Below, piece after piece: positions 195-11,441 of a stretch of DNA of 11,441 bases (positions are counted from its first letter, which is position 1; each line of letters starts with the position of its first letter). The notes below the pieces were generated by a model. The model was not told where the DNA came from, did not search any database, and saw only the letters and a list, made by a program, of their open reading frames with translations. The stretch is from a virus. The DNA lies in UHGV virus genome UHGV-0368337; one strand, 5' to 3'. A program made the translations under genes and the position numbers.

Positions 195-416
195 TCACAA
201 CGACGCTGCTTTTACGGGTAAGCCATCGCGCCCGATGAAAACTTTAATCATGCAGTCGGTAATGCATGTTTTTGTTGTGAAGTTACGAATATAGAGTTTT
301 CTCTTTTCAATATTGTTTGCTGAAGCGATATATGTCCGACCTTCATGAAGAACATAATCGCCAGGCGTCACGCACTGACGTGGTATTTCATCAGTTCCGA
401 AGTGATGAGCAATCAT
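195..416 (-). CDS. small protein (73 aa), possibly a Kil-like host-killing protein
   Basis: ORF track 195..434; preferred start is the ATG at 416 ([10 protein letters not shown]...) with GGAGA 5 nt upstream. It lies at the distal end of the leftward operon, where kil genes sit in lambda/Rac-type prophages. Identity rests on position and size only. Confidence 0.5.
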
Positions 417-872
417 AATTATCTCCATTTTCACAAATGAACTTTGTTGATGCGGTGCCTGGTGCCTCCAGGTGGCGTTAACCAGTTAACAATTAACGCC
501 GGGTCAGGGGACGATGACTTTCCGTGACATCCTGTCGGTTTAACTGTTCCGCGTGCGCTGAGCCGCATTCACCGCATCACAAAATTCACTTTAAAAAGGG
601 CGGACATCAGCAATCGGCAAACCGATATCCGCCAAGGGTTACACACAGCAATGTTGTTATTCACAACCGGAAGCGCACGGTCGAAGAAATCTAACGACAA
701 TCCTTCTATGGGAAAGAGTCTTCGCCTCGCGCTTTCGTGTAGTACCCTGGCTTTCAGGGTAATGTCTGTTCAGTAAACTGAGAGTGCAGGAACTCCCCCG
801 TGTCCGGCGCACGATCTCCACCTCACCCGTGGAGAACTCCTCAACTACAAACCCCGTAAGGAGAGTGAATTT

Positions 873-8438: not shown

Positions 8439-8499
8439 TGCTGCGGGTGCTTGAGGCTGTCTGCCTCGGGCATGCCACCGTAAGGCAGACAGAGAAAAG

Positions 8500-8565
8500 C
8501 CCCAGTTAACATTACGCGTCCTGCAAGACGCCTAACATTAATCTGAGGCCAATTTCATGCTAGAC
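8500..8565 (-). ncRNA. candidate Sok-like antisense RNA (hypothetical)
   Basis: Minus-strand promoter-like TTGCCT (rc of 8595..8600), 17 nt, TAACCT (rc of 8572..8577). The transcript would be antisense to the SD and start of the upstream in-frame ORF at 8557 and contain hairpin 8515..8530. No clean U-tract terminator. Confidence 0.25.
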
Positions 8566-8613
8566 ACATGTAGGTTAGCCTCTTACGCGCCGAAAGGCAA
8601 GGAGAAGCAGGCT

Positions 8614-8769
8614 ATGAAGCAGCAAAAGGCGATGTTAGTCGCCCTGATCGTCATCTGTATTACCGTCATTGTGACGGCACTGGTAACGAGGAAAGACCTC
8701 TGCGAGGTACGAATCCGAACCGGCCAGACGGAGGTCACTGTCTTCACAGCTTACGAACCTGAGGAGTAA
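8614..8769 (+). CDS. hok: Hok/Gef-family type I toxin (51 aa membrane peptide)
   Basis: MKQQKAMLVALIVICITVIVTALVTRKDLCEVRIRTGQTEVTVFTAYEPEE shows the Hok/Gef signature (TM helix, TRK-LCE-R-G-EVA-F-AYE). AAGGCAAGGAGAAG RBS. ORF track 8557..8769 includes an in-frame upstream start with its own GAGG. Confidence 0.85.
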   Translation: MKQQKAMLVALIVICITVIVTALVTRKDLCEVRIRTGQTEVTVFTAYEPEE

Positions 8770-8837
8770 GAGACCAGGCGAGGGAGAAATCCCTCGCCAC
8801 CTCTGATGTGTCAGGCATCCTCAACGCACCCGCACTT

Positions 8838-8859
8838 AACCCGCTTCGGCGGGTTTTTT
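8838..8859 (+). terminator. rho-independent terminator of the hok transcript
   Basis: AACCCGC-TTCG-GCGGGTT followed by TTTT, preceded by the strong 3-prime hairpin GGCGAGGGA-GAAA-TCCCTCGCC (8777..8798). Confidence 0.75.
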
Positions 8860-8978
8860 CACGTACTGTGGTTGTGAATACGATCGGTATTAGGCTATGC
8901 TAACAACATTAGCCTGACTAATTTTGTATTGACTTGATTTTTGTTAAAGAACAGGACGGAGAAGTAAGGGTACACCCA

Positions 8979-9711: not shown

Positions 9712-10029
9712 TCATGATATTACCTGGATTCCGTTTTTCTCTACGACTGAAAGAAGGCGAAGAGCGGCACCTCCCGGCCGTTTTACACCACGTTCCCAGT
9801 CTGATATCAGGTTTTTACTGACGTTGAGGTATCTGGCAAAAACAGGTTGAGACAGATGCTCTCGTTCGCGCAGTGCACGGATCCTTTCCGGAGACATTAC
9901 CGGCGCTGGCTGGAGACAAGTTTCATCGAATTCTCGCATAGTCTGTTTCGTTACTGCGCCGATATCATGAAGCGATTCCATCATTTCATGTACGGATGCA
10001 AGCGCATCACTGCGGTAATTTTTACTCAT
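9712..10029 (-). CDS. HigA-like HTH (XRE-family) antitoxin
   Basis: 105 aa; GGAGG 7 nt upstream of the ATG at 10029. C-terminal HTH LSQPVFARYLNVSKNLISDWERG. Directly downstream of the RelE/HigB-like toxin reading frame on the same strand, i.e. toxin-first order. Confidence 0.75.
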   Translation of the reverse strand: MSKNYRSDALASVHEMMESLHDIGAVTKQTMREFDETCLQPAPVMSPERIRALREREHLSQPVFARYLNVSKNLISDWERGVKRPGGAALRLLSVVEKNGIQVIS

Positions 10030-10083
10030 TGGGTACCTCCGTAAACTGACCCTGTAGAATCAGTTGTGCCAGTTGTTCATCTG

Positions 10084-10391
10084 TTAGATTGAGTACGTGA
10101 GGAGCCCCTTCCGAAATGCACTTTCCTCAGTAGCGGTTATATTTTCACGTTCATTTTTTGCGTATGCATATACGAAAAAGGCCCTTGTGCCGACGCGATA
10201 GAAAATGATTGTGCGATAACCGCCAGATTTGCCGCCACCGACTCGTGGCAGACGTTGCTTGATAACGCCGTTACCCAGGTTTGCTGAGATAAGCCCGTTA
10301 TCAGCCTGTTTAACAATTTCGCGCAGTGATTGGTCGGATATTTTGTTTTGCGTGCAAGTCGCTCAAACCAGGCGTTTTTAAAAATGCGCAT
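10084..10391 (-). pseudogene. RelE/HigB-like type II toxin gene interrupted by a -1 frameshift
   Basis: N-terminus MRIFKNAWFERLARKTK from the ATG at 10391. The rest, including the hallmark GGGKSGGYRTIIFYR, is in the -1 frame (...ISDQSLREIVKQADNGLISANLGNGVIKQRLPRVGGGKSGGYRTIIFYRVG...TYSI, stop 10086..10084). Adding one base to the homopolymer at 10341..10344 restores a 102-aa ORF. Confidence 0.6.
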
Positions 10392-10458
10392 TTTTTGTTC
10401 CGTTATTAATGTATAACACATAGTGTTACATTGCGTAGGGATCTGCAATGCCATCAGT

Positions 10459-10488
10459 TTGACAACGTCGCGTGTTCGGGGCTATATT
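10459..10488 (+). promoter_or_regulatory. near-consensus sigma-70 promoter (TTGACA, 18 nt, TATATT)
   Basis: TTGACA at 10459..10464 and TATATT at 10483..10488. Divergent from the higB-like start; faces the structured region and the ORF6N-like gene. Confidence 0.5.
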
Positions 10489-10494
10489 CCTCAC

Positions 10495-10569
10495 GCGCCA
10501 GCAAAACCTGGCGTCGGGATTAGCACCCCGGATATCGAAACGGTGCATAACCGCGCTGGCGGTTTTTTT
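10495..10569 (+). ncRNA. candidate small RNA or transcriptional attenuator (about 75 nt)
   Basis: Starts about 7 nt after the promoter -10. Hairpins CGCCAG-CAAAAC-CTGGCG and GCACC...GGTGC, then terminator-like CCGC-GCTG-GCGG plus T7 (10551..10569). About 165 nt of further structured sequence precedes the next gene. Confidence 0.3.
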
Positions 10570-10733
10570 ATGCGCTAAGCACAGTCACATTCGCGATTTA
10601 TGGCGGGCTGTGTGGGGGAGCCGAAAGGCTCGCCGGATGTTTCGACCGGTAGTGCTAACCCCGCACAGTTCGCCACCACGATGATTAGCACCTGACGGTG
10701 GCGAGGTAAAAATTATCGAAACGCGAGGTCATT

Positions 10734-11354
10734 ATGGCTGTTCAAATTTCTGTCGAAAACCTTTCCCCTGTTACCTATAACCAGATCCCCGTAATTACTA
10801 CTGAACTGTTGGCTCACCTTTACGGAACAAAAATCAAAAACATTTCTGATAACTTTCTGAACAACACGACGCGATTCATGCCCGGAAAGCATTACTTTAA
10901 AATTGAAAAAAACGAATTACGCGAGTTTAAGAACAGACCCGAAACAATCGGGTTAGTTGGTAAAAATGCCCGCTCCCTCATCCTCTGGACAGAACGCGGC
11001 GCAGCCCGTCACGCAAAAATGCTCGAAACCGATCGGGCGTGGGAGGTATTCGAAAAACTGGAAGACTGCTATTTCAGCCAGGGAAAAACAGCACCAACCG
11101 AACAGCAGCCGCAGATTCAGCCACAATTCACAGCCGAAGAAATCATCCTCCTTTGCTACATGCAGCTCTGGATGGAAAAAGCCCAGGACATCAGCAAACA
11201 CCTGTATCCCATTATGAAAGAGCTGAACTCCTCATACACGAACAAGCTGTATGACATTGCGTTTGAGACCATCTACATGGTGACGAAGAACAGAGACGCG
11301 CTACTAAGGAAGGTGCGAATAAGCAGGTCATTTCTTCCCAAGCTGACTCGCTGA
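10734..11354 (+). CDS. ORF6N/KilA-N-like DNA-binding domain protein (phage regulatory or antirepressor-like)
   Basis: 206 aa; GAGG 6 nt upstream. N-terminal region (VTYNQIPVITTELLAHLYG...LILWTERGAARHAKMLETDRAWEVFEKLEDCYF) resembles ORF6N/KilA-N-type phage domains; C-terminal half is Gln/Pro-linked and unassigned. Confidence 0.7.
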   Translation: MAVQISVENLSPVTYNQIPVITTELLAHLYGTKIKNISDNFLNNTTRFMPGKHYFKIEKNELREFKNRPETIGLVGKNARSLILWTERGAARHAKMLETDRAWEVFEKLEDCYFSQGKTAPTEQQPQIQPQFTAEEIILLCYMQLWMEKAQDISKHLYPIMKELNSSYTNKLYDIAFETIYMVTKNRDALLRKVRISRSFLPKLTR

Positions 11355-11405
11355 TTAAAATTTCTCGGATCTGGGCCGATTTTTTTCCCGCAAACACATC
11401 GAATC

Positions 11406-11427
11406 AGCCTATTTAGGCTATTTTTTC
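11406..11427 (+). terminator. weak candidate rho-independent terminator
   Basis: AGCCTA-TT-TAGGCT hairpin followed by ATTTTTT, about 50 nt after the ORF6N-like stop. Short AT-containing stem. Confidence 0.3.
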
Positions 11428-11441
11428 CACCATTTCTGGCG

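What the first reader, a model, noticed from the sequence alone, without database searches (positions are those of the whole stretch)
10459..10733. Near-consensus promoter driving a short hairpin-terminator unit: candidate sRNA or attenuator
TTGACA-18-TATATT is among the best sigma-70 matches in the window, yet the first ORF with an RBS is about 240 nt downstream. Directly after the predicted start site are two hairpins and a GC stem plus T7 terminator-like element (to 10569), predicting an RNA of about 75 nt, or an attenuator gating the ORF6N-like gene. The decamer TATCGAAACG occurs twice (10532..10541 and 10713..10722), the second just before that gene's RBS, hinting at a shared binding site or base-pairing target.
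Basis: seen in the sequence. Interest (0 to 1): 0.55.

Follow-up and report, generated by a model that had tools for sequence, protein, structure and literature searches.

The report
Prophage IsrK–C4 antisense immunity module

Summary
TTGACA-18-TATATT (10459-10488) is the only 11/12 sigma-70 match in the window. Behind it lie two hairpins and a GC stem with U7, ending at 10569. The decamer is repeated, one base to the right of the stated coordinates (10533-10542, 10714-10723).

It is a known element. 10495-10569 matches Rfam isrK end to end (74.3 bits, cut-off 50), and 10482-10534 matches c4-a1b1. The decamer is the b1/b2 target of a C4 loop (GTTTCGA). A second repeat, GATTAGCAC (a1/a2), matches C4's GTGCTAA.

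In 13 loci compared (this window, 11 diverse phages and P1), with Gifsy-1 checked separately, the C4 loops change together with both target pairs. No permutation of target assignments reached the observed fit (0 of 100,000).

The downstream gene (ORF6N + P22_AR_C) is 80% identical over 144 aa to Gifsy-1 AnrP. Published Gifsy-1 compensatory mutations fall on the a1:a' pairs, and this window carries natural double changes at those positions.

Likely working: terminated transcripts give IsrK. Read-through gives C4 plus ant mRNA. C4 blocks the ant ribosome site, and IsrK competes for C4.

Already known; low interest. Here an IS5-like insertion cuts the end of ant.

The parts
10459..10488 (+). PisrK, a sigma-70 promoter: -35 TTGACA 10459-10464, 18-nt spacer, -10 TATATT 10483-10488. 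The predicted start site is G10495.
   Evidence: Only 11/12 match in the window. The -35/-10 are conserved in most homologous loci and are positionally equivalent to the annotated P1c4 (P51b) promoter of P1. The start site is inferred from position 1 of the isrK model; it has not been mapped.
10495..10569 (+). IsrK-family sRNA (75 nt). Hairpin 1 is 10495-10514. Hairpin 2 is 10515-10530 and carries a1 in its loop. b1 lies in a single-stranded stretch. The intrinsic terminator is 10549-10564 with U7 at 10563-10569.
   Evidence: Rfam RF01394 isrK: 74.3 bits (cut-off 50), model 1-77/77. Fold. Across 13 loci, hairpin 1 and the terminator stem show compensatory changes. c4-a1b1 (RF03163) covers 10482-10534 at 47.4 bits (cut-off 46.7).
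10518..10526 (+). a1 site, GATTAGCAC. TTAGCAC (10520-10526) is complementary to a' of C4.
It is complementary to b' of C4.
10542..10576 (+). Outer helix that encloses the IsrK terminator. It can form only in read-through RNA (about 10542-10549 paired with 10569-10576).
   Evidence: Predicted in all 13 loci, with arms that co-vary: GCGCAU/AUGCGY, GCGACA/UGUCGU, GCGAUA/UAUCGUC, and GCGGACA/UGUCCGU in P1.
10596..10680 (+). C4 antisense RNA. The mature form is predicted at about 10602-10677, by alignment to the annotated 77-nt P1 c4. It has a long closing stem and two internal hairpins.
   Evidence: Rfam RF01695: 75.1 bits (cut-off 45), model 1-87/87. MFE -49.1, z -5.95. 14 of 27 consensus pairs show compensatory changes in 13 loci. 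P1 c4 annotation.
10639..10645 (+). b' (GTTTCGA), in the loop of the second C4 hairpin.
   Evidence: Perfect complement of b1 and b2 (pairs I6 and I7).
10652..10658 (+). a' (GTGCTAA), in the single-stranded joint of C4.
   Evidence: Perfect complement of TTAGCAC in a1 and a2 (pairs I1 and I9).
10600..10695 (+). Small ORF (31 codons) that starts at the conserved ATG at the 5' edge of C4. It is the positional equivalent of Gifsy-1 orf45.
   Evidence: The ATG is at +106 here and at +107 in Gifsy-1. Across loci the ORF runs from 3 to 260 codons, and here it stops 38 nt before the ant ATG, so it is probably not a conserved coding unit.
10670..10704 (+). Alternative hairpin. The 3' strand of the C4 stem (TCGCCACC, 10670-10677) pairs with GGTGGCGA (10697-10704), which puts a2 in the loop.
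   Evidence: pair I4. Predicted in 12 of the 13 loci; in P1 the equivalent pairing (CCTGCCACC/GGTAGCAGG, 8 of 9 pairs) was aligned by hand, and RNAfold there draws a shorter variant of the stem. The pairs co-vary (TCACCACC/GGTGGTGA in most loci).
10683..10691 (+). a2 site, GATTAGCAC, in the ant leader.
It ends 2 nt before the Shine-Dalgarno GAGG at 10725-10728.
10734..11354 (+). ant, the antirepressor gene (ORF6N + P22_AR_C domains). The native sequence runs only to 11314; the last 13 codons come from an inserted IS5-like element.
   Evidence: Pfam ORF6N 2.1e-20 and P22_AR_C 2.9e-07. 80% identity over 144 aa to Gifsy-1 STM2616 (AnrP). IS junction.

Best explanation
This is the regulatory front end of a P1-immI / Gifsy-1-type "IsrK–C4" antisense-RNA anti-immunity module in a lambdoid E. 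coli prophage.

The promoter at 10459-10488 starts transcription near 10495. Most transcripts stop at the intrinsic terminator (10549-10569) and give the 75-nt IsrK RNA, which displays site a1 in a hairpin loop and site b1 in a single-stranded stretch. Some transcripts read through. These carry the tRNA-like C4 RNA (10596-10680), which is probably cut out as in P1, followed by the ant mRNA.

C4 pairs through its two exposed segments, b' (GUUUCGA) and a' (GUGCUAA), with a2 (10683-10691) and b2 (10714-10723) in the ant leader. b2 abuts the Shine-Dalgarno sequence, so antirepressor translation is blocked and the prophage stays repressed.

IsrK carries the same two sites within a longer complementary stretch, both as free RNA and as the 5' part of the read-through RNA. 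It therefore competes for the C4 loops. When IsrK is in excess, the ant ribosome site is freed and antirepressor is made.

Shown here: family membership, architecture, complementarity and covariation. Taken from experiments on homologues: the two isoforms, activation by IsrK in trans, repression by c4, and processing of c4. Inferred for this locus: that IsrK works mainly by titrating C4.
For: - Three Rfam models hit in the expected order, each above its gathering score: c4-a1b1 at 10482-10534 (47.4 vs 46.7), isrK at 10495-10569 (74.3 vs 50) and C4 at 10596-10680 (75.1 vs 45).
- The same isrK-then-C4 pair, about 25 nt apart, sits upstream of an antirepressor-type or icd-like gene in 12 of 12 fetched phage loci. 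It is also present in Gifsy-1 and, with a weaker isrK match (35 bits, full length), in P1.
- Both repeats are exact complements of the C4 loops and occur nowhere else in the window.
- Specificity covaries. For a' and b' against IsrK and against the ant leader, the cognate duplex is the best or shares the best score in most rows of the 13 x 13 energy matrices. The cognate sums are reached by 0 of 100,000 permutations in all four comparisons.
- Numbering the Gifsy-1 sequence shows that the published compensatory pairs G28A/C162U and G31A/C159U (PMC4825925) are a1:a' pairs. This window has A:U at both positions and C:G instead of U:A at the next one.
- The MFE of the 266-nt read-through RNA pairs a1/b1 with a'/b' in cis, like the published inactive "structure A".
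- IsrK pairs more extensively with the C4 loop region than the ant leader does (-34.2 vs -23.5 kcal/mol).
- Ant is 80% identical over 144 aa to AnrP.
- Literature: c4 RNA represses Ant synthesis in P1 (PMC8546580; P1 annotation). IsrK and STnc1160 are highly transcribed in Gifsy-1 lysogens (PMC7067206). An "IsrK-C4 immunity system" in P4, P1, P7, N15 and lambdoid prophages has already been named (PMC3632133).
Against: - There are no expression data for this locus. The start site, terminator efficiency, C4 processing and Hfq dependence are untested.
- The IsrK fold alone is not exceptional (z -1.5).
- The Gifsy-1 authors explain activation by remodelling of the mRNA and by translation of orf45 coupled to anrP through an AUGA overlap. 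Here that ORF ends 38 nt upstream of ant, and its length varies widely in the family, so that step may not apply.
- In Gifsy-1, constitutive co-expression of STnc1160 (the C4 region) made the IsrK-mediated growth arrest stronger, not weaker. This does not fit a simple titration model.
- In this window ant is cut by an IS5-like element, so the output of the switch may be impaired in this strain.
Confidence: 0.85

Rival explanations
1. The Gifsy-1 model taken literally. The region after IsrK acts mainly as a small coding ORF (the orf45 equivalent, 10600-10695). IsrK opens its ribosome site, and ribosomes translating it switch on ant by translational coupling. C4 as a free antisense RNA plays no part.
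For: - In Gifsy-1, mutating the first AUG of orf45 or inserting a stop codon lowers activation of anrP, and IsrK helps 30S binding (PMC4825925).
- The ATG is conserved at the same position in all loci.
Against: - The ORF is 3 to 260 codons long across the 14 loci in the table and has no conserved peptide.
- In this window it stops 38 nt before the ant ATG instead of overlapping it as AUGA.
- No Shine-Dalgarno sequence is visible before ATG 10600.
- The sequence is conserved as RNA structure, with compensatory changes. The Gifsy-1 paper itself notes that the nucleotide sequence is conserved but the amino-acid sequence is not.
- The a2/b2 sites next to the ant ribosome site co-vary with the C4 loops, which this model does not explain.
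Confidence: 0.1
2. P4/N15-style termination control. C4 binds a1/b1 on the nascent transcript and changes how often RNA polymerase stops at the IsrK terminator. The unit would then be chiefly an RNA-controlled attenuator that autoregulates C4 and ant transcription. This could operate alongside the main model.
For: - a1/b1 lie directly upstream of the terminator.
- A covarying outer helix encloses the terminator in read-through RNA.
- P4 CI RNA acts this way on seqA/seqC, and the Gifsy-1 authors raise the idea for STnc1160.
- Barquist et al. treat IsrK/C4 as structural homologues of seqA/CI.
- IsrK in trans raised the anrP transcriptional fusion 8-fold in Gifsy-1.
Against: - The translational effect in Gifsy-1 was much larger (139-fold).
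- Co-expressing STnc1160 did not relieve the IsrK phenotype.
- Nothing here measures termination.
Confidence: 0.25
3. IsrK is mainly a trans-acting, Hfq-dependent sRNA that regulates host genes. Its position upstream of ant is incidental.
For: - Rfam names the family "isrK Hfq binding RNA".
- It has a terminator hairpin plus a U-run, as Hfq-binding sRNAs typically do.
Against: - The Gifsy-1 study reports that IsrK acts in an Hfq-independent manner and on its own locus.
- a1/b1 co-vary with the neighbouring C4 in every locus, so the selected partner lies in cis.
Confidence: 0.07
4. A decaying remnant. The promoter, terminator and repeats are inherited, but the module no longer functions in this strain.
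For: - ant is cut by an IS5-like element at 11314/11315.
- The neighbouring RelE/ParE-family toxin gene carries a 1-nt deletion relative to FORC_069.
Against: - The RNA part (10440-10760) is 100% identical across the genomes listed. 158 genomes hold at least 80% of it, and the best place is at least 99% identical in 108 records.
- All pairing sites are intact.
- 193 of 221 Ant codons remain, including the whole ORF6N domain.
Confidence: 0.1

Closest known systems
IsrK / STnc1160 / orf45-anrP locus of Salmonella prophage Gifsy-1 (Hershko-Shalev et al. 2016, PMC4825925)
   Same: - Same order: promoter, IsrK with its terminator, C4-type RNA (STnc1160), then an antirepressor with an ORF6N domain.
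- isrK and C4 models hit both loci.
- a1 occupies +24 to +32 in both, and the conserved ATG is at +106 here and +107 in Gifsy-1.
- Ant is 80% identical to AnrP over 144 aa.
- Both lie in lambdoid prophages.
   Different: - The recognition sequences differ (a: GAUUAGCAC vs GAUUGGCGU; b: UCGAAAC vs UCACCG), so the two modules should be heteroimmune.
- The small ORF is 31 rather than 45 codons and does not overlap the ant start.
- No isrJ follows ant within the window.
- The upstream neighbour is a toxin-antitoxin pair, not antQ.
- ant is interrupted by an IS element.
immI operon of phages P1 and P7 (c4 antisense RNA, icd, ant1/ant2; Citron & Schuster 1990, cited from memory and through)
   Same: - Same order: a constitutive promoter, a1 and b1, the c4 RNA carrying b' and a', then a2 and b2 at the ribosome site of the first downstream gene. 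All of these are annotated in the P1 record.
- The C4 model scores 68.8 bits in P1.
- Specificity differences between phages lie in the a/b sequences.
   Different: - P1 has icd between c4 and ant; here ant follows directly.
- The P1 leader matches the isrK model only at 35 bits, below the cut-off of 50, although over its full length and including a terminator-like hairpin.
- P1 has a C1 operator (Op51) at the upstream promoter. None is known here.
- The antirepressor proteins are unrelated in domain content, as far as was checked.
P4 immunity (CI RNA with seqA/seqC) and the N15 anti-immunity CA RNA
   Same: A processed small RNA lies between two copies of its own target sequence. Barquist et al. 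2013 regard them as structural homologues of C4 and IsrK, and the Gifsy-1 authors draw the same comparison.
   Different: In P4 and N15 the RNA causes premature transcription termination of replication or antirepressor genes. In P1, and by inference here, it blocks a ribosome site. These loci were not examined here.
P22 immI (sar antisense RNA, Arc/Mnt, Ant)
   Same: An antirepressor is held in check by an antisense RNA in a secondary immunity region. The Ant C-terminal domain here is of the P22 type (P22_AR_C).
   Different: sar is a true cis-antisense transcript from the opposite strand. There are no a/b repeats and no tRNA-like RNA. This comparison is from memory and was not tested here.

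Membership tests
isrK (Rfam RF01394) | Covariance-model score at or above the gathering score (50 bits) over the whole model | tested here: met
   74.3 bits, model 1-77/77, 10495-10569.
isrK (Rfam RF01394) | Two 5' hairpins followed by a Rho-independent terminator, supported by covariation | tested here: met
   Fold. In 13 loci, 5 of 6 hairpin-1 pairs and 3 of the 4 called terminator pairs show double changes (8 of 14 called pairs in all). The hairpin-2 stem is nearly invariant.
isrK (Rfam RF01394) | Own promoter, producing a short RNA plus a read-through mRNA into the antirepressor gene | not testable with these tools
   Only the promoter consensus and homology to the annotated P1 promoter and the Gifsy-1 experiments are available.
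isrK (Rfam RF01394) | The middle part pairs with the downstream C4/orf45 region (published G28:C162 and G31:C159 pairs) | tested here: met
   7 of 7 a1:a' pairs and 7 of 7 b1:b' pairs. There are natural double changes at the published positions.
isrK (Rfam RF01394) | orf45-type upstream ORF whose stop overlaps the antirepressor start (AUGA coupling) | tested here: not met
   The ORF 10600-10695 stops 38 nt before ATG 10734. Its length is not conserved across loci.
C4 antisense RNA (Rfam RF01695) | Covariance-model score at or above the gathering score (45 bits), with a long closing stem and two internal hairpins | tested here: met
   75.1 bits, model 1-87/87. MFE structure identical to the consensus, z -5.95. 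14 of 27 pairs are compensatory.
C4 antisense RNA (Rfam RF01695) | Exposed a' and b' segments complementary to a2/b2 at the ribosome site of the downstream gene | tested here: met
   GTGCTAA pairs with TTAGCAC (10685-10691) and GTTTCGA with TCGAAAC (10716-10722). b2 ends 2 nt before GAGG. Cognate specificity: 0 of 100,000 permutations.
C4 antisense RNA (Rfam RF01695) | Excised from a longer precursor (RNase P at the 5' end) to a stable RNA of about 77 nt | not testable with these tools
   The ends (about 10602-10677) are inferred by alignment to the annotated P1 c4.
c4-a1b1 (Rfam RF03163) | Score at or above 46.7 bits, located upstream of a C4 RNA | tested here: met
   47.4 bits at 10482-10534, only just above the cut-off, and 62 nt upstream of C4.
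P1/P7 immI operon | c4 followed by icd and then ant1/ant2, with ant expression coupled to icd translation | tested here: not met
   No icd-like gene is present. ant (ORF6N/P22_AR_C) starts 54 nt after C4.
P1/P7 immI operon | The antirepressor inactivates the primary prophage repressor | not testable with these tools
   Inferred from 80% identity to AnrP, whose expression induces Gifsy-1.

The most novel reading that the evidence does not exclude
IsrK may be a dedicated decoy (anti-antisense RNA) for C4. The leakiness of its terminator and the relative stabilities of the two RNAs would then set the threshold for antirepressor synthesis.

The many a/b sequence types among Stx and other lambdoid prophages would form a set of orthogonal "anti-immunity" channels. 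There are at least 7 a-types and 13 b-types in the 14 loci examined. The closest genome carries two different modules 1.6 kb apart in one prophage. These channels would decide which co-resident prophages can induce one another.
Probability: 0.35. Interest if true: 0.4.

Novelty: already known. Interest (0 to 1): 0.15.

Why it matters
It explains an unannotated 240-nt "empty" leader in a common E. coli prophage. 562 of 5426 complete genomes have a related copy, and RefSeq annotates only the ORF6N gene there.

It also ties three separately curated entries together as parts of one switch: isrK, c4-a1b1 and C4. Rfam places isrK outside the C4 clan, and a 2025 review lists IsrK and c4 as unrelated items. 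Barquist et al. made the link in 2013.

In practice, such modules control antirepressor-driven, possibly SOS-independent, induction of lambdoid prophages, including Stx-converting phages. As a discovery it adds nothing categorically new.

Tried and rejected
- A single MAFFT alignment of the whole region from 13 loci put the b sites out of register. I did not use it for pair counting. I used per-locus extraction with a cognate versus non-cognate duplex matrix and permutation tests instead.
- My first regular expression mis-parsed b' of one locus (L013), which made its row meaningless. This was fixed.
- The overlapping ORFs 10423-10578 (+), 10472-10684 (+) and 10426-10548 (-) were rejected as genes. 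RefSeq annotates none of them in an identical locus, and they overlie covarying RNA structure.
- ORF 10137-10454 (-) gave a weak partial RelE hit. It turned out to be the wrong frame of a frameshifted toxin gene.
- tRNA scan: nothing found.
- Extra copies of the a or b motifs elsewhere in the window: none beyond chance.
- A possible pairing of the spacer motif GCACAGT (10579-10585) with the C4 5' strand was dropped, because it does not co-vary between loci by inspection.
- The P1 genome paper and Citron & Schuster 1992 are not held. Statements about RNase P processing and Rho-dependent polarity in P1 therefore rest on my own knowledge.
- The sub-threshold Rfam hits (a second isrK-like hit at 8778-8859, rsmX, istR, DicF, STnc100, MIR7532) were not accepted as family members.
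Full report
**1. The observation**

- **Promoter.** TTGACA (10459-10464), 18 nt, TATATT (10483-10488) is the only 11/12 sigma-70 match in the window. All other sites score 9/12, and promoter-like sites as a class are not enriched (11 found against 15.4 +/- 4.5 expected).
- **Hairpins and terminator.** From 10495, RNAfold gives two hairpins (10495-10514 and 10515-10530) and a GC-rich stem (10549-10564) running into U7 (10563-10569). That makes 75 nt at -27.2 kcal/mol. The z-score of -1.5 is unremarkable on its own.
- **Decamer.** TATCGAAACG is present twice, at 10533-10542 and 10714-10723, one base to the right of the coordinates given.
- **First gene with a ribosome site.** ATG 10734 is preceded by GAGG at 10725-10728.
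- **What was missed.** A second 10-nt repeat, GATTAGCACC, lies at 10518 and 10683. The segment between the two repeat sets holds the exact reverse complements of both motifs, GTTTCGA (10639-10645) and GTGCTAA (10652-10658).
- **Chance.** In 5000 dinucleotide shuffles of 10495-10733, a direct repeat of 10 nt or more appears 111 times. Two motifs that are each repeated with their complement in between appear 8 times.

**2. What it is**

A scan against all Rfam families gives three full-length hits in a row on the + strand:

| Family | Coordinates | Bits | Gathering score |
|---|---|---|---|
| c4-a1b1 (RF03163) | 10482-10534 | 47.4 | 46.7 |
| isrK (RF01394) | 10495-10569 | 74.3 | 50 |
| C4 antisense RNA (RF01695) | 10596-10680 | 75.1 | 45 |

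The C4 segment folds into the family's shape: a long closing stem with two internal hairpins, at -49.1 kcal/mol and z -5.95. b' sits in the loop of the second hairpin, and a' sits in the unpaired joint.

The downstream gene (10734-11354) has ORF6N and P22_AR_C domains. It is 80% identical over 144 residues to STM2616 of Gifsy-1. STM2616 lies where the Gifsy-1 paper places AnrP, directly downstream of isrK and orf45.

**3. Surroundings**

The window is part of a lambdoid, Rac-like prophage. In order it carries:

- a CI-like XRE repressor, then cro/cII-like and replication genes;
- DUF1627, DUF977 and DUF551 genes;
- hok/sok;
- a Doc-type toxin, and a RelE/ParE toxin with an HTH antitoxin on the minus strand;
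- then this module.

The RNA region is 100% identical in phage PhiR12_3 and in many E. coli chromosomes. 562 of 5426 complete genomes have a related copy and 158 have a full-length one. RefSeq annotates only the ORF6N gene there and no RNA.

**4. Related loci**

I fetched twelve diverse phage loci: Stx1 and Stx2 phages, PhiR12_4, PA4, PA28, Nil2, a phiV10-like typing phage, Hafnia, Yersinia and Salmonella phages, and the aphid-symbiont phage APSE-8. All twelve have isrK followed about 25 nt later by C4. So do Gifsy-1 and P1. In P1 the leader matches the isrK model over its whole length, terminator-like hairpin included, but only at 35 bits.

The P1 record annotates exactly this layout: promoter P1c4 (P51b), a1, b1, the c4 RNA, a2, b2, then icd and ant.

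Structure is supported by compensatory changes in 13 loci:
- In IsrK, 8 of 14 called pairs show double changes, mostly in hairpin 1 and the terminator stem.
- In C4, 14 of 27 pairs do.

**5. The decisive test: recognition sequences change together**

Reading the loci side by side, each C4 has its own a' and b'. The same locus carries matching a1/b1 in IsrK and a2/b2 before the downstream start codon:

| Locus | a site | b site |
|---|---|---|
| This window | GAUUAGCAC | UCGAAAC |
| PhiR12_4 | GAUUUGCAC | (A)UCAACC |
| PA28 | GAUUGGCGU | GAAAAAGG |
| APSE-8 | GAUUCGCAU | CUAAACAGG |
| P1 | UGACAG | GUUAGUG |

I computed duplex energies of every C4 loop against every locus's IsrK and leader. The cognate partner ranks first in 12/13 (a' vs IsrK), 11/13 (b' vs IsrK), 7/13 (a' vs leader) and 10/13 (b' vs leader) rows, and no lower than third once a mis-parsed row is set aside. 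Five loci share one a-type, which limits the a' rankings.

With that parsing error fixed, the summed cognate energies were reached by 0 of 100,000 permutations of target assignments in each of the four comparisons. The a and b motifs occur nowhere else in the window beyond chance.

**6. Link to experiments**

The Gifsy-1 study (PMC4825925) reports the following:

- The isrK promoter drives both a short terminated IsrK and a read-through isrK-orf45-anrP mRNA.
- The read-through RNA is translationally silent.
- IsrK supplied in trans raises anrP translation more than 100-fold.
- Mutations G28A and G31A in IsrK are compensated by C162U and C159U downstream.

When I number the Gifsy-1 sequence from the isrK model start, all published positions are reproduced: A107 of the first AUG, UG120-121, C18, G173 and C175. 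G28:C162 and G31:C159 turn out to be two of the seven a1:a' pairs. The published "helix b-I" is therefore the a1:a' (plus b1:b') interaction of the P1 scheme.

This window naturally has A:U at both of those positions and C:G instead of U:A at the next pair. That is a triple compensatory change relative to Gifsy-1. The MFE of the window's 266-nt read-through RNA also pairs a1/b1 with a'/b' in cis.

That paper does not cite the P1 c4 work. It compares the locus with P4 instead. Barquist et al. 2013 had already described an "IsrK-C4 immunity system" shared by P4, P1, P7, N15 and lambdoid Salmonella prophages (PMC3632133). APSE phage genomes are annotated with both RNAs. IsrK and STnc1160 (the C4 region) are highly transcribed in Gifsy-1 lysogens under all conditions tested (PMC7067206).

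**7. How it most likely works here**

- **Shown:** the parts, their order, their complementarity, and the covariation.
- **By homology:** the promoter fires constitutively. Most transcripts end at 10569 as IsrK. Read-through makes the C4 precursor and ant mRNA. In P1, c4 is a processed 77-nt RNA that represses Ant synthesis. RNase P processing and Rho-dependent polarity are from my own knowledge of the P1 literature.
- **Inferred:** C4 holds ant off by pairing with a2 and b2, and b2 ends 2 nt before the Shine-Dalgarno sequence. IsrK competes for the same loops and has the stronger predicted duplex (-34.2 against -23.5 kcal/mol). The IsrK:C4 ratio would then decide whether antirepressor is made.

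Two findings weigh against this simple form. In Gifsy-1, constitutive co-expression of the C4 region did not relieve the IsrK effect. The authors also attribute activation to translation of orf45 coupled to anrP.

In this window the corresponding ORF (10600-10695, 31 codons) ends 38 nt before ant instead of overlapping it. Across loci it varies from 3 codons to in-frame fusions. I therefore rate coupling as unlikely to be the general mechanism.

A P4-like effect of C4 on termination at the IsrK terminator remains possible. It is compatible with a covarying outer helix that encloses the terminator only in read-through RNA.

**8. Further conserved features**

- The outer helix around the terminator (about 10542-10549 with 10569-10576).
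- A hairpin in which the 3' strand of the C4 stem (TCGCCACC, 10670-10677) pairs with GGTGGCGA (10697-10704) and presents a2 in its loop. It cannot form at the same time as the C4 closing stem.

The outer helix is predicted in all 13 loci. The a2-presenting hairpin is predicted in 12 of them; in P1, RNAfold draws a shorter variant, and the full equivalent pairing was aligned by hand. Both features change compensatorily. Their roles are not known to me.

**9. Verdict**

It is already known.

The specifics of this copy are:
- its own recognition sequences;
- no AUGA-coupled upstream ORF and no icd;
- a toxin-antitoxin pair as its upstream neighbour;
- an IS5-like (ISKpn26-family) element inserted at 11314/11315, which replaces the last 28 codons of ant.

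Interest is low.

Noticed in passing
window 11315-11441: Similarity to the FORC_069 prophage stops at 11314. The rest of the window is the end of a multicopy IS5-like element (ISKpn26 family; up to 43 places per genome). The ant gene therefore loses its last 28 codons (221 aa in FORC_069) and gains 13 foreign ones.
   Followed up: yes
L015 (E. coli FORC_069) 16159-17093: The closest matching prophage carries a second promoter-isrK-C4-ant module 1.6 kb downstream, after ninB/ninE. It is of the PA4/Stx-phage type, with different a/b sequences (GAUUGGCGU; GAGACC/GAAACC). One prophage thus holds two presumably orthogonal modules.
   Followed up: partly
window about 10021-10359, minus strand: The RelE/ParE-family toxin gene of a toxin/HTH-antitoxin pair has a 1-nt deletion near 10107 relative to FORC_069, which shifts the frame of its C-terminus. 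The mechanical ORF 10137-10454 (-), annotated as a CDS in phage PhiR12_3, is a different frame of the same DNA.
   Followed up: partly
window 10408-10436: An imperfect palindrome, AATGTATAACAC-ATA-GTGTTACATT, lies in the divergent intergenic region between the toxin gene start and the -35 of the isrK promoter. It may be an operator of the toxin-antitoxin pair.
   Followed up: no
window 8445-8769: A hok/sok type I toxin-antitoxin locus. The sok model RF01794 scores 116.9 bits at 8445-8619, and the hok-like ORF is at 8557-8769 (hokD in RefSeq).
   Followed up: partly
window 8770-8865: A strongly structured stretch lies right after hok: a 9-bp GC hairpin plus a terminator, GGGUUUUUU-type (MFE -38, z -4.66). 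It gives only sub-threshold isrK (31 bits) and rsmX hits, and is probably the hok mRNA 3' end and terminator.
   Followed up: partly
window 10542-10576 and 10670-10704: Two covarying helices are not part of the Rfam models. One is an outer helix that encloses the IsrK terminator in read-through RNA, predicted in all 13 loci. The other is a hairpin that uses the 3' strand of the C4 stem to present a2 in a loop; it is predicted in 12 loci, with the P1 equivalent aligned by hand.
   Followed up: partly
window 598-647 (-) and 402-596 (-): Sub-threshold Rfam hits to DicF (29.2 bits, cut-off 48) and STnc100 (27.8 bits, cut-off 47) lie near the kil end of the prophage. A Rac-like prophage might carry a diverged dicF-type RNA there.
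   Followed up: no
Rfam hits in window 10482-10569 and in all fetched loci: Rfam families isrK (no clan) and c4-a1b1 (clan CL00128, with C4) overlap by about 40 nt on the same RNA in the 11 loci (including this window, P1 and Gifsy-1) where c4-a1b1 was detected. They describe one element under two names.
   Followed up: yes
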